From IMG/VR virus record IMGVR_UViG_3300048925_000677, positions 53,569 to 117,568 of that record: a stretch of 64,000 nt of DNA; one strand, written 5' to 3'. Source of the DNA: a virus (Duplodnaviria; Heunggongvirae; Uroviricota; Caudoviricetes). Positions within the stretch are counted from its first letter, which is position 1; each line of letters starts with the position of its first letter. Position numbers and translations under genes: made by a program. Positions 58,860 through 59,641 of the stretch are shown here, in pieces. The notes below the pieces were generated by a model that saw only the letters and a list, made by a program, of their open reading frames with translations, searched no databases and was not told the origin of the DNA.

Positions 58860-59641
58860 GTACTGATCACTTTCTGGAGGATTGCTTTGACTCTCCTAAA
58901 CTTGCGGAGCGACTTCTCAATGTCGTCGATAATCGCCTGGGCGGTCTCGGGGTCCATCTCGGGGTCCTCAAGGTTCTCGAGGCCGTAATCGTCGATAGCG
59001 AAAGACATTCCATTGACCGCGTCGCGGAACCGCTCAATGACTTCGGCCGCGGACTTGCGGCGCATCATCCGCTTCGGCTTGGCTACATCACGCGTATCGT
59101 CGGCCGGTGCCTCGCTAGTGGGGGGCGCCGCGGGCGCCCTGTCCTTCGGCTTCGGCCCTGGCGCCCTCTTGCCGGAGGCGGTGTGACGCTCGGGAGGTTC
59201 ATTAATGTCCTCGGAGGACATTAATGAAGGCCTGATCTGGCCGACAAAGTTTGGGCTCACCCCCACCCGTCGAGCGTGCTCTCTGTCGCTCAGCCCGGGG
59301 TCGGCCTTTAGTGAGGCGATCACGGCTTCACGCTTCTGCTTGTTACTTAGTGGCGGGCGCTGGTTGACGTTCACCGAGAAGATGAGGTCGCGCTTCTCCC
59401 TGTCGGAGAGTCCACGCTCGGTGGTACAGCGGTATTCCAGGCCGTGCTTCACCGCGATCCTGTAACGGTGATGGCCGTCAAGGATCGCGCCGGACTCGTC
59501 GATGATGATCGGCGCGATAATCCGGCCGCTGGCAACGATATTCGATTCCAACGTCGAGAATTGCTGATCATCAAGCCGCGGGTAGAGCGCCTGGAACGCT
59601 TCGTCGATATAGACGGTTACAGGTGCCGCCATCGCCGTCAC
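58856..59641 (-). CDS. ParB-like nuclease-domain protein (second copy)
   Basis: 261 aa; AILDGHHRYRIA motif; basic, low-complexity C-terminal half. Confidence 0.6.
   Translation of the reverse strand: MTAMAAPVTVYIDEAFQALYPRLDDQQFSTLESNIVASGRIIAPIIIDESGAILDGHHRYRIAVKHGLEYRCTTERGLSDREKRDLIFSVNVNQRPPLSNKQKREAVIASLKADPGLSDREHARRVGVSPNFVGQIRPSLMSSEDINEPPERHTASGKRAPGPKPKDRAPAAPPTSEAPADDTRDVAKPKRMMRRKSAAEVIERFRDAVNGMSFAIDDYGLENLEDPEMDPETAQAIIDDIEKSLRKFRRVKAILQKVIST
59200..59226. promoter_or_regulatory. 27-bp perfect palindrome CATTAATGTCCTC-g-GAGGACATTAATG inside ParB-like gene 2; candidate parS/centromere-like site
   Basis: 13-bp arms around a single central base; AT-rich for this genome. Confidence 0.45.

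What the first reader, a model, noticed from the sequence alone, without database searches (positions are those of the whole stretch)
59200..59226. 27-bp perfect palindrome inside the second ParB-like gene: candidate parS/centromere-like site
CATTAATGTCCTC-g-GAGGACATTAATG has 13-bp perfect arms; a perfect 27-mer is very unlikely by chance in 64 kb. It lies within the low-complexity linker-coding part of ParB-like gene 2. Two ParB-like nuclease-domain proteins sit in tandem with no ParA, so an intragenic centromere/binding site (as parS often lies within or beside parB) or a nicking/recombination site is plausible.
Basis: seen in the sequence. Interest (0 to 1): 0.55.

Follow-up and report, generated by a model that had tools for sequence, protein, structure and literature searches.

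The report
Self-encoded binding site in phage ParB-like gene
The palindrome is real, and matching palindromes of quite different sequence sit at the same spot in about half of the related phage genes examined, so it is most likely the DNA site to which the ParB-like protein encoded by that same gene binds, which gives a concrete handle on a large group of phage proteins whose DNA targets are unknown.

Summary
The palindrome exists and is longer than reported: 31 bp at 59198-59228, with 15-bp arms. It is single copy in the window and built from rare AT-rich codons. It lies in the minus-strand gene 58856-59641, a ParB N-domain plus HTH protein in the early operon of an integrated Cluster-J-like actinophage. 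It codes the last turn of the recognition helix and the start of the linker.

The decisive evidence is comparative. Three orthologues (47-61% identity) carry different palindromes centred on the same codon, and 10 of 15 arm positions change on both sides. Among 99 non-redundant family genes, 42 have a perfect palindrome with arms of at least 10 bp 59-89 codons after the DGHHR motif; 0.8 were expected. Many family members are fused to DNA methyltransferases.

Complementarity runs to the centre and there is no G-U bias, so this is a DNA dyad, not an RNA hairpin. Inner half-sites covary with the recognition helix.

Best reading: a parS-like cognate site for the gene's own product. It is not a partition centromere: there is no ParA and the phage is integrated. 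Binding is inferred, not shown. I found no prior description in the papers searched.

The parts
59198..59228 (.). 31-bp perfect palindrome TTCATTAATGTCCTC-G-GAGGACATTAATGAA (15-bp arms, 1-nt centre). The candidate cognate (parS-like) site.
   Evidence: sequence and extent; single copy; rare codons; orthologues keep a dyad on the same codon, with changes on both arms; family-wide enrichment.
58856..59641 (-). ParB-like gene 2. It has a ParB/Srx N-domain with box II 'DGHHR', a three-helix HTH, a linker and a C-terminal helical hairpin. The product is 258 aa from the ATG at 59632, or 261 aa from the GTG at 59641.
   Evidence: ORF; PHROG ParB-like; identical to P0001; family profile hits M. xanthus ParB, T. 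thermophilus and B. subtilis Spo0J, and Noc; AF2 model with pLDDT 86.5; best fold match Spo0J 1VZ0.
59216..59287 (-). Segment coding the helix-turn-helix (residues 116-139; recognition helix 127-139 is coded by 59216-59254). It overlaps the palindrome by 13 nt.
   Evidence: secondary structure of the model; coordinates computed from the ATG at 59632.
59153..59185 (-). Segment coding the conserved post-palindrome motif (T-A-S-G-K-R-A-P-G-P-K here; 'GxDGKxYP'-like in relatives).
   Evidence: alignment and translations; pLDDT about 82-86 despite lying in the linker.
58032..58859 (-). ParB-like gene 1. A DUF6551 / DGQHR (DndB-like) ParB-fold protein without a detected HTH. Its start overlaps the stop of gene 2. 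It is the partner in the window's clade and in Gordonia phage Ecliptus.
   Evidence: PF20188, 6.7e-17; weak TIGR03187 DGQHR match; conserved partner in L003 and in Ecliptus gp59.
60641..60961 (-). Cro-like HTH regulator that heads the leftward early operon containing the esterase, ParB-like 2 and DUF6551 genes. A divergent repressor-like gene lies at 60997-61485 (+).
   Evidence: phrog_1702 and phrog_1746, transcriptional repressors; same synteny in Ecliptus: immunity repressor, divergent HTH gene, then ParB-like gp58.

Best explanation
The palindrome is the cognate DNA site of the ParB-like protein encoded by the same gene.

Proposed mechanism: a dimer of the protein reads the two half-sites of the dyad with its HTH recognition helices, as canonical ParB reads parS. 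The protein has a ParB N-domain, an HTH and a C-terminal helical domain that probably dimerises.

The site sits in the only part of the gene that tolerates an arbitrary peptide, the junction between the HTH and the linker. Protein and site are therefore inherited as one unit, and the newly made protein finds its site in cis.

The most likely consequence of binding is nucleation or loading of the ParB-fold protein on the phage DNA, possibly gated by a nucleotide as in other ParB-fold proteins. In this window that would act together with the DUF6551/DGQHR partner. In relatives it would act with fused or adjacent DNA-modification enzymes. It does not serve plasmid-style partition.

Shown here: the dyad, its conservation in position with changing sequence, its DNA rather than RNA character, the ParB+HTH fold, and the covariation of helix and half-site.

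Inferred: binding itself, dimerisation, nucleotide dependence and spreading.
For: 1. Orthologues at 47-61% identity keep a dyad centred on the same codon, with different sequences: CTAATTGTCTC-G-GAGACAATTAG, AATTGCTAA-T-TTAGCAATT and AATGTCA-AAAAA-TGACATT. In these, 83% of cells are paired against 61% in shuffles and 29-48% when the partner is slid. Ten of 15 pairs change on both sides.

2. Family-wide, 42 of 99 non-redundant genes have a perfect palindrome with arms of at least 10 bp in the zone +30 to +140 codons after DGHHR. The expected number from 924 kb of flanking DNA is 0.8. The median position is +79.5 codons, with 10th-90th percentile 64-86. Allowing mismatches, 62 of 99 zones score at least 9, against 12 of 495 control windows.

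3. The encoded peptides are not conserved, and rare codons are used.

4. The dyad runs to the centre. Spacers are 0, 1 or 2 nt in 42 of 50 cases. G.T-type mismatches (9) are not enriched over A.C-type (17). This points to duplex DNA symmetry, not an RNA hairpin.

5. In-register recognition helices correlate with the inner 8-nt half-sites: r=0.54, and partial r=0.50 given N-domain identity, with 0 of 5000 permutations as high. Six 'DHKT' helices all pair with a GGGAA-N-TTCCC core, although their N-domains are no more alike than those of the family at large.

6. The site is single copy in the window, in every fetched locus and in the complete 55.6-kb genome of Gordonia phage Ecliptus.

7. The protein has a ParB N-domain and HTH homologous to canonical ParB.

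8. There is a precedent. B. subtilis Spo0J has 'VPRET' in its linker (PDB 5NOC). This is the in-frame translation of the parS consensus TGTTCCACGTGAAACA quoted in PMC7614844. That this parS copy lies inside spo0J is from my own knowledge (Lin and Grossman 1998).
Against: No binding experiment exists.

The outer arms differ between close relatives yet stay perfectly complementary, and arms reach 15-20 bp. That is longer than a single HTH dimer needs. It fits selection for pairing potential, or correction of quasi-palindromes by template switching, as well as or better than sequence-specific reading.

The helix and the site are encoded within about 30 nt of each other. Their covariation could therefore reflect shared local ancestry rather than recognition.

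About 40% of family genes lack a clear palindrome.

The window's clade has a GC centre (CTC-C-GAG), unlike the AA-TT centre of most of the family.

Box I of canonical CTP-binding ParB is not evident, so clamp-like loading is speculative.
Confidence: 0.55

Rival explanations
1. Same binding, different purpose. [quoted passage not shown] This would give negative autoregulation of the 3' part of its gene and of the downstream early operon: the DUF6551 gene here, the methyltransferase domain in fused relatives.
For: A documented precedent exists. C.Kpn2I binds a palindrome inside its own ORF and stalls RNA polymerase, and its authors predict the arrangement is widespread (PMC6237814). The site is single copy and lies within the operon headed by the cro-like gene. 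In fusions the site lies upstream of the enzyme-coding part, whose over-production could be harmful.
Against: A roadblock would work from any position in or before the gene, and promoter-proximal operators are the usual solution. The ParB N-domain is conserved together with the site (nearly invariant DGHHR and N..RR motifs), and simple repression does not need it. No experiment bears on this.
Confidence: 0.2
2. A structure-forming DNA element, valued for its ability to extrude as a cruciform or fold as a single-strand hairpin. It could be a replication origin or priming site inside the initiator's gene, or a nick site for the ParB-like 'nuclease' domain.
For: Outer arms vary but remain perfectly complementary, and arms reach 20 bp. 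The A/T-rich centre found in most members favours extrusion. As single-stranded DNA the window's site folds at -13.1 kcal/mol, z=-6.3. The gene order repressor, cro-like, DNA-binding protein with an internal site, then partner recalls lambda cI-cro-O(ori)-P (own knowledge) and is seen here and in Ecliptus. Ecliptus has no annotated replication initiator. A Toprim/DUF7146 gene follows the homologue in L052.
Against: There are no iterons and no adjacent AT-rich unwinding region; the site is a single dyad. No GC-skew inflection is seen at 59 kb. Most family members are methyltransferase fusions, which are unlikely initiators. Conserved inner cores track the recognition helix. Nuclease activity of DGHHR-type ParB domains is not established for this family.
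Confidence: 0.12
3. An RNA hairpin in the mRNA, for example an RNase III or processing site, a ribosome pause at the domain boundary, or an attenuator.
For: The sequence can form a 14-bp stem with a 3-nt loop, and compensatory changes are the classic signature of RNA structure.
Against: Complementarity extends into the central 0-2 nt in 42 of 50 cases, which an RNA hairpin cannot use. There is no excess of G.U-compatible mismatches on the sense strand: 9 against 17. No terminator-like site is called at the palindrome. No Rfam family matches.
Confidence: 0.05
4. A chance palindrome, or a by-product of the encoded peptide, with no function.
For: Taken alone, arms of at least 13 bp arise in about 2% of simulated 64-kb sequences.
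Against: The enrichment at one gene position is roughly 50-fold across 99 genes. The peptides are not conserved. Rare codons are used. Both arms change together in orthologues.
Confidence: 0.02

Closest known systems
Chromosomal ParB/Spo0J with parS inside the parB (spo0J) coding sequence (B. subtilis)
   Same: The protein has a ParB N-domain, an HTH and a C-terminal domain. A perfect palindrome lies in the part of the gene that codes the linker after the DNA-binding domain. Spo0J's linker reads VPRET, which is the in-frame translation of parS. The family profile and the fold both match canonical ParB.
   Different: There is no ParA, and the replicon is an integrated prophage. The site sequence is unrelated to the parS consensus and differs in almost every relative. 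There is one site per genome rather than a cluster near an origin. Box II reads DGHHR, not GERR. Many relatives are enzyme fusions.
Orphan ParB-CTPase-fold proteins of phages and prophages, including ParB-methyltransferase and DUF6551 fusions (Kaljevic et al. 2025, PMC12704722), and the ParB-like activator of phage thymine dioxygenases (PMC13229309)
   Same: Same fold, same prophage setting, same lack of ParA and same association with DNA-modification enzymes. The window's second gene is a DUF6551 protein, a class reported to bind CTP or ATP.
   Different: Neither paper mentions a DNA site or a palindrome. 'palindrom' occurs 0 times in the bioRxiv version of Kaljevic et al. and in PMC13229309, and 'parS-like' and 'loading site' occur 0 times in PMC12704722. 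The dioxygenase-associated ParBs lack a DNA-binding domain, whereas this family has an HTH next to the site.
C.Kpn2I controller protein, which binds an operator inside its own ORF and acts as a roadblock (PMC6237814)
   Same: An HTH protein whose palindromic site lies within its own coding sequence.
   Different: C proteins are small Xre-type HTH dimers without a ParB domain. Their site also regulates a divergent methyltransferase promoter. No promoter context is evident here.
Lambda O protein with ori in the linker-coding part of gene O (own knowledge)
   Same: The site lies in the linker-coding region of the gene for the protein that binds it. The gene lies just downstream of cro and is followed by a partner gene. 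Site and specificity co-vary between relatives.
   Different: Lambda ori has four iterons plus an AT-rich region, whereas here there is a single dyad. The protein fold is ParB, not O. There is no evidence of origin function.

Membership tests
ParABS partition system (parS centromere) | A ParA (deviant Walker A ATPase) partner encoded with ParB | tested here: not met
   No KGGxGK[ST]-type motif occurs in any frame of the 64-kb window. The neighbours are an esterase and a DUF6551 protein.
ParABS partition system (parS centromere) | ParB with an N-terminal ParB/Srx (CTPase-fold) domain, a central HTH and a C-terminal dimerisation domain | tested here: met
   The family profile hits M. xanthus ParB (6e-10), Spo0J 1VZ0/6SDK and Noc. 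The AF2 model shows an N-domain, an HTH and a C-terminal helical hairpin. The best Foldseek match is Spo0J. Dimerisation is inferred only.
ParABS partition system (parS centromere) | An extrachromosomal or chromosomal replicon whose segregation depends on the site | tested here: not met
   A tyrosine integrase sits at the window's end. In identical copies (L001, L002) it is followed by a gene with NAD_binding_7 and TP_methylase domains, which I read as a host gene. The element is therefore an integrated prophage.
ParABS partition system (parS centromere) | A palindromic site specifically bound by the ParB | not testable with these tools
   The dyad is present and conserved, and it covaries with the recognition helix. 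Binding needs EMSA or ChIP.
Orphan phage ParB-fold proteins (ParB-HTH, with or without a methyltransferase) | A ParB N-domain with the conserved box II arginine, no ParA, and a phage or prophage location | tested here: met
   DGHHR and N88/R91/R92 are nearly invariant in 52 sequences. Among the best 120 of the 263 relatives, most are fused to MT-A70 or N6_N4 methyltransferases. The context is a Cluster-J-like prophage.
Orphan phage ParB-fold proteins (ParB-HTH, with or without a methyltransferase) | Nucleotide (CTP/ATP/GTP) binding by the fold | not testable with these tools
   Reported for some phage members, including DUF6551 fusions, in PMC12704722. Not assayable here.
Intragenic operator / roadblock (C.Kpn2I type) | The binding site of the regulator lies inside its own ORF | tested here: met
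   59198-59228 lies inside 58856-59641.
Intragenic operator / roadblock (C.Kpn2I type) | The bound protein stalls elongating RNA polymerase | not testable with these tools
   Needs in-vitro transcription or reporter assays.
Origin of replication inside the initiator gene (lambda O / ori type) | Several iterons plus an adjacent AT-rich unwinding element | tested here: not met
   The site is a single dyad with no further copies or half-sites. No GC-skew inflection is seen.
Intrinsic terminator / known RNA family | A GC-rich stem followed by a U-run, or a match to an Rfam model | tested here: not met
   No terminator-like site is called at the palindrome. No Rfam match occurs at gathering score in the whole window.

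The most novel reading that the evidence does not exclude
The palindrome is a self-marking loading site. ParB-fold, nucleotide-gated proteins load at the dyad embedded in their own gene and then spread or slide along that DNA molecule. They do this alone, with a DGQHR/DUF6551 partner, or fused or adjacent to MT-A70, N6_N4, C5 or Mom-type modification enzymes. DNA modification, or another protective activity, would then be confined in cis to the phage genome that carries the site. That would be a way of telling self from non-self DNA. Each lineage would have evolved its own private pair of site and recognition helix.
Probability: 0.2. Interest if true: 0.9.

Novelty: new variant of a known kind. 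Interest (0 to 1): 0.72.

Why it matters
Phage and prophage 'orphan' ParB-fold proteins, many fused to DNA methyltransferases, form a large family. This search found 5,322 cluster representatives at E<=1e-3. Two recent papers read here (the Kaljevic et al. survey in its bioRxiv and PNAS versions, and PMC13229309) establish nucleotide binding and a role in activating a DNA-modifying enzyme. They do not say where such proteins act on DNA.

If the intragenic palindrome is the cognate site, the target of each of these proteins can be read from its own gene sequence. That makes several things directly testable: binding specificity, clamp-like loading and spreading, cis-restricted methylation and autoregulation. 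It also supplies a natural library of matched recognition-helix and site pairs for studying how ParB-type specificity evolves.

It also warns annotators that 'ParB-like nuclease domain protein' genes in actinophages carry a cis element.

Tried and rejected
- An exact search for the 27-mer with a free centre in IMG/VR found nothing.
- Megablast of 57500-61000 against phage genomes found nothing. The more sensitive blastn matched only the esterase gene of Cluster J mycobacteriophages.
- A half-site scan of the window with up to 3 mismatches gave only chance-level hits.
- Scans of every fetched locus and of the whole Ecliptus genome for extra copies found none. A dispersed operator or stoperator-like regulon is therefore rejected.
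- Pfam does not recognise gene 2 at all; only PHROGs and profile searches do. NCBIfam finds nothing for gene 2 and only a weak DGQHR match for gene 1. PADLOC finds nothing for either.
- tRNA and Rfam scans were negative. attP overlapping a tRNA gene and a known RNA are therefore rejected.
- The first helix-versus-site test, with helices anchored to the palindrome edge, was out of register and weak (partial r=0.11; 39 of 2000 permutations as high). It was replaced by an in-register version.
- Methyltransferase target motifs such as GANTC in the dyad centres were considered. Only one case fits (L049), so this is rejected.
- Palindromic potential forced by a conserved peptide was considered. It is true only for a second, unrelated spot, the 'FS..EK' codons seen in L054 and Ecliptus. 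It does not hold for the main site, whose peptides vary.
- Two literature searches for the statement that parS lies within spo0J did not retrieve it. That point therefore rests on my own knowledge plus the 5NOC peptide check.

Full report
**Observation.** The sequence is as reported: CATTAATGTCCTC-G-GAGGACATTAATG at 59200-59226. The perfect dyad is in fact 31 bp, TTCATTAATGTCCTC-G-GAGGACATTAATGAA at 59198-59228, with 15-bp arms. No second copy exists in the 64 kb, and no half-site with 2 or fewer mismatches. In 100 order-2 Markov simulations of the window, arms of at least 13 bp arose twice. The palindrome on its own is therefore unusual but not overwhelming. The window also contains a longer GC-rich hairpin at 57470-57506.

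**Where it lies.** The site is inside the minus-strand ORF 58856-59641. Pfam does not recognise this protein, but PHROGs calls it ParB-like.
- A profile of the family matches M. xanthus ParB, T. thermophilus and B. subtilis Spo0J, and Noc, over the N-domain plus HTH.
- An AlphaFold2 model (pLDDT 86.5) shows a ParB/Srx N-domain (residues 1-90), three helices forming an HTH (97-110, 116-123, 127-139), a linker, and a C-terminal helical hairpin (195-257). Its best solved-structure match is Spo0J 1VZ0.
- The palindrome codes residues 135-145 (P-S-L-M-S-S-E-D-I-N-E). That is the last turn of the recognition helix and the start of the linker.
- The codons are rare for this 62% G+C phage. TTA is 1.6% of Leu codons, ATT 14% of Ile, AAT 22% of Asn and GAA 22% of Glu. 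Random back-translation of the same peptide yields the 15-bp arms in 7e-4 of trials.

**Genomic setting.** The window is the non-structural arm of a temperate actinophage distantly related to Cluster J mycobacteriophages.
- At DNA level only the esterase gene matches phage Omega and its relatives.
- The window encodes Ku-like, FtsK-like, NAMPT, PRPP synthetase, RNA ligase, helicase, polynucleotide kinase and Thg1-like proteins.
- A tyrosine integrase lies at the window's end. In two identical copies from other samples it is followed by a gene with NAD_binding_7 and TP_methylase domains, which I read as a host gene. The phage is therefore integrated.
- The ParB-like gene is the third gene of the leftward operon headed by a cro-like regulator. 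The DUF6551/DGQHR ParB-fold gene 58032-58859 follows it with overlapping stop and start.
- No ParA-type Walker A motif occurs in the window.

**Orthologues.** Only three close orthologues exist in the databases (47-61% identity). A codon alignment shows that each has its own palindrome centred on the same codon:
- CTAATTGTCTC-G-GAGACAATTAG
- AATTGCTAA-T-TTAGCAATT
- AATGTCA-AAAAA-TGACATT

Counting pairs on the ungapped alignment gives 83% of cells paired, against 61% in shuffles and 29-48% when the 3' partner is slid. Ten of 15 positions change on both arms.

**The wider family.** More distant relatives were fetched from genomes, metagenomes and IMG/VR. Almost every one that reaches this part of the gene carries its own, unrelated, perfect palindrome there.
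- Among 99 non-redundant genes, 42 have arms of at least 10 bp and 21 have arms of at least 12 bp, the longest being 20 bp. These lie in the zone +30 to +140 codons after the DGHHR motif.
- The expected numbers are 0.8 and 0.28, taken from 924 kb of surrounding DNA in the same loci.
- The median position is +79.5 codons, with 10th-90th percentile 64-86.
- Allowing mismatches, 62 of 99 zones score at least 9, against 12 of 495 control windows.
- The encoded peptides are unrelated to each other.
- Two layouts occur. In one the dyad comes right after the recognition helix, as here. In a subfamily it comes just before the HTH.
- Most relatives are fusions of this ParB-HTH module to MT-A70 or N6_N4 DNA methyltransferases.
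- In unfused relatives the next gene varies: DUF6551 (this clade and Gordonia phage Ecliptus), a Mom-family protein, what reads as a C5 cytosine methyltransferase (judged from its sequence, not searched), or a Toprim protein.
- The family has 5,322 cluster representatives at E<=1e-3 and 717 at E<=1e-10.
- The isolated phage Ecliptus has the same synteny. It carries TGGTCAA-G-TTGACCA at the homologous spot, plus an 11-bp-arm palindrome further into the linker that is the longest perfect palindrome in its 55.6-kb genome. Both are single copy.

**DNA or RNA?** Complementarity runs into the centre. Among the 50 palindromes with arms of at least 9 bp, the spacer is 0, 1 or 2 nt in 42. An RNA hairpin cannot use those central pairs, so they would not be maintained under selection for an RNA stem. 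Mismatches inside and at the edges of the dyads show no excess of G.U-compatible types on the sense strand (9, against 17 of the antisense type). No terminator-like site is called at the palindrome, and no Rfam family matches anywhere in the window. The selected object is therefore a duplex-DNA dyad, or a DNA cruciform.

**Protein-binding site or pure structure?** Evidence for sequence-specific reading:
- In-register recognition helices correlate with the inner 8 nt of the half-site. The correlation is r=0.54, and the partial r is 0.50 given N-domain identity, with 0 of 5000 permutations as high.
- Six proteins with a 'DHKT' helix all have a GGGAA-N-TTCCC core. Their N-domains are no more similar to each other than to the rest of the family.

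Evidence for pairing potential as such:
- Outer arms differ even among those six proteins yet stay perfectly complementary.
- Arms of 15-20 bp exceed what one HTH dimer contacts.
- Template-switch correction of quasi-palindromes could keep the arms perfect without selection at each position. This is established in E. coli genetics (own knowledge).
- The helix and the site are encoded within about 30 nt of each other, so linkage could inflate their covariation.

I therefore put the chance that the site is bound by the gene's own product at about 0.7-0.75 overall. That combines the best explanation and the roadblock rival.

**What binding does.** This step is inferred.
- A partition centromere is unlikely. 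There is no ParA, the phage is integrated, and relatives are enzyme fusions.
- The closest precedent for the arrangement is canonical. The Spo0J linker contains VPRET (PDB 5NOC), which is the in-frame translation of the parS consensus quoted. That B. subtilis has a parS inside spo0J is from my own knowledge.
- The ParB N-domain is conserved along with the site, with nearly invariant DGHHR and N..RR motifs. Phage members of the fold bind CTP or ATP. The module recurs next to DNA-modifying enzymes. I therefore favour a parS-like nucleation or loading site acting in cis on the phage genome (confidence 0.55).
- The main alternative is an autoregulatory roadblock like C.Kpn2I (confidence 0.2).
- An origin or nick site is less likely (0.12). 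The gene order resembles lambda cro-O(ori)-P, and Ecliptus lacks an annotated initiator. However, there are no iterons, no unwinding element and no skew signal.

**Novelty.** Neither the survey of ParB-CTPase-fold proteins nor the study of a ParB-like activator of phage dioxygenases mentions a DNA site for these phage proteins. Searches combining ParB-like, methyltransferase, phage and palindrome or inverted repeat found nothing relevant. Within the limits of this library, the family-wide intragenic dyad appears to be undescribed. It is a new variant of a known arrangement, a cis site embedded in the gene of its binding protein.

**Limits.**
- The homologue loci were gathered by motif-seeded scans, so they are not a random sample.
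- Palindrome position is inherited, so the 99 genes are not independent as to position, although their sequences are.
- About 40% of the genes lack a clear dyad.
- All mechanistic steps beyond sequence and fold remain to be tested.

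Noticed in passing
window 8649-8671: The 23-bp perfect palindrome CTGTTCGGGAA-G-TTCCCGAACAG lies immediately after a near-consensus promoter (TTGACA, 17 nt, TAGAGT at about 8614-8642). It precedes a Shine-Dalgarno sequence and a short hydrophobic ORF starting at 8688. It looks like an operator controlling a small membrane-protein gene upstream of the Ku-like gene. Its GGGAA-N-TTCCC core resembles the sites of the 'DHKT' branch of the ParB-like family, but no such protein is encoded in the window.
   Followed up: partly
window 57370-58031 (hairpin 57470-57506): A gap of about 660 nt without a convincing ORF follows the DUF6551 gene. It contains a 16-bp GC-rich stem with a 5-nt loop, CGAGACGGGCGTAGAG-AATGG-CTCTACGCCCGTCTCG, the longest hairpin in the window. 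On the transcribed (minus) strand it has no clean U-run. There is no tRNA or Rfam match. It may be a terminator, a processing site or an uncharacterised small RNA.
   Followed up: partly
L065 4375-4390: A ParB-HTH-MT-A70 gene (2649-3830) lacks an internal palindrome. An exact canonical chromosomal parS, TGTTTCACGTGAAACA, lies 545 nt downstream of it in an intergenic gap. The cluster looks phage-like and includes a second methyltransferase. An exact 16-mer is not expected by chance in 9 kb. This may be a relative that uses a host-type parS placed outside the gene.
   Followed up: partly
L287 (Gordonia phage Ecliptus OP820472) record positions 38436-38456, 38632-38646 and 38724-38747: Gene 58, annotated as a ParB-like nuclease domain protein, holds three palindromes with arms of 9, 7 and 11 bp. 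The 9-bp and 11-bp ones are two of only three perfect palindromes with arms of at least 9 bp in the 55.6-kb genome. The record annotates no replication initiator, polymerase or primase.
   Followed up: partly
L083, L274, L052 (genes immediately downstream of the ParB-like gene): The partners differ: a Mom-family DNA-modification protein (Pfam, 4e-45), a 642-aa protein that reads as a C5 cytosine methyltransferase (judged by eye from its sequence, not searched), and a Toprim/DUF7146 protein. This suggests the ParB-HTH module with its dyad is a portable unit combined with different DNA enzymes.
   Followed up: partly
L046 1466-1574: A cluster of overlapping TAGTGATCC / GGATCACTA inverted repeats, including one with 19-bp arms, lies about 4.3 kb upstream of the ParB-methyltransferase gene. 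It is unrelated in sequence to that gene's internal palindrome. It may be an origin or an operator array.
   Followed up: no
window 8981-9913, 11057-12361, 23034-26876, 40898-43070: The prophage carries several auxiliary genes: a Ku-like end-binding protein with an Lsr2-like tail, an FtsK/SpoIIIE-like ATPase, an NAD+ salvage pair (NAMPT and PRPP synthetase), an RNA ligase, a polynucleotide kinase and a Thg1-like tRNA-His guanylyltransferase. This amounts to an RNA-repair and NAD-salvage toolkit, which I recall as typical of Cluster J-like phages.
   Followed up: partly
window 59123-59139 (within the ParB-like gene, residues 168-173 of the 261-aa ORF from GTG 59641): A second, short GC-rich palindrome, GGGCGCC-cgc-GGCGCCC (7-bp arms), lies in the Pro/Ala-rich linker. 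It is probably a composition effect. Ecliptus and L007 also have a second dyad further into the linker.
   Followed up: no
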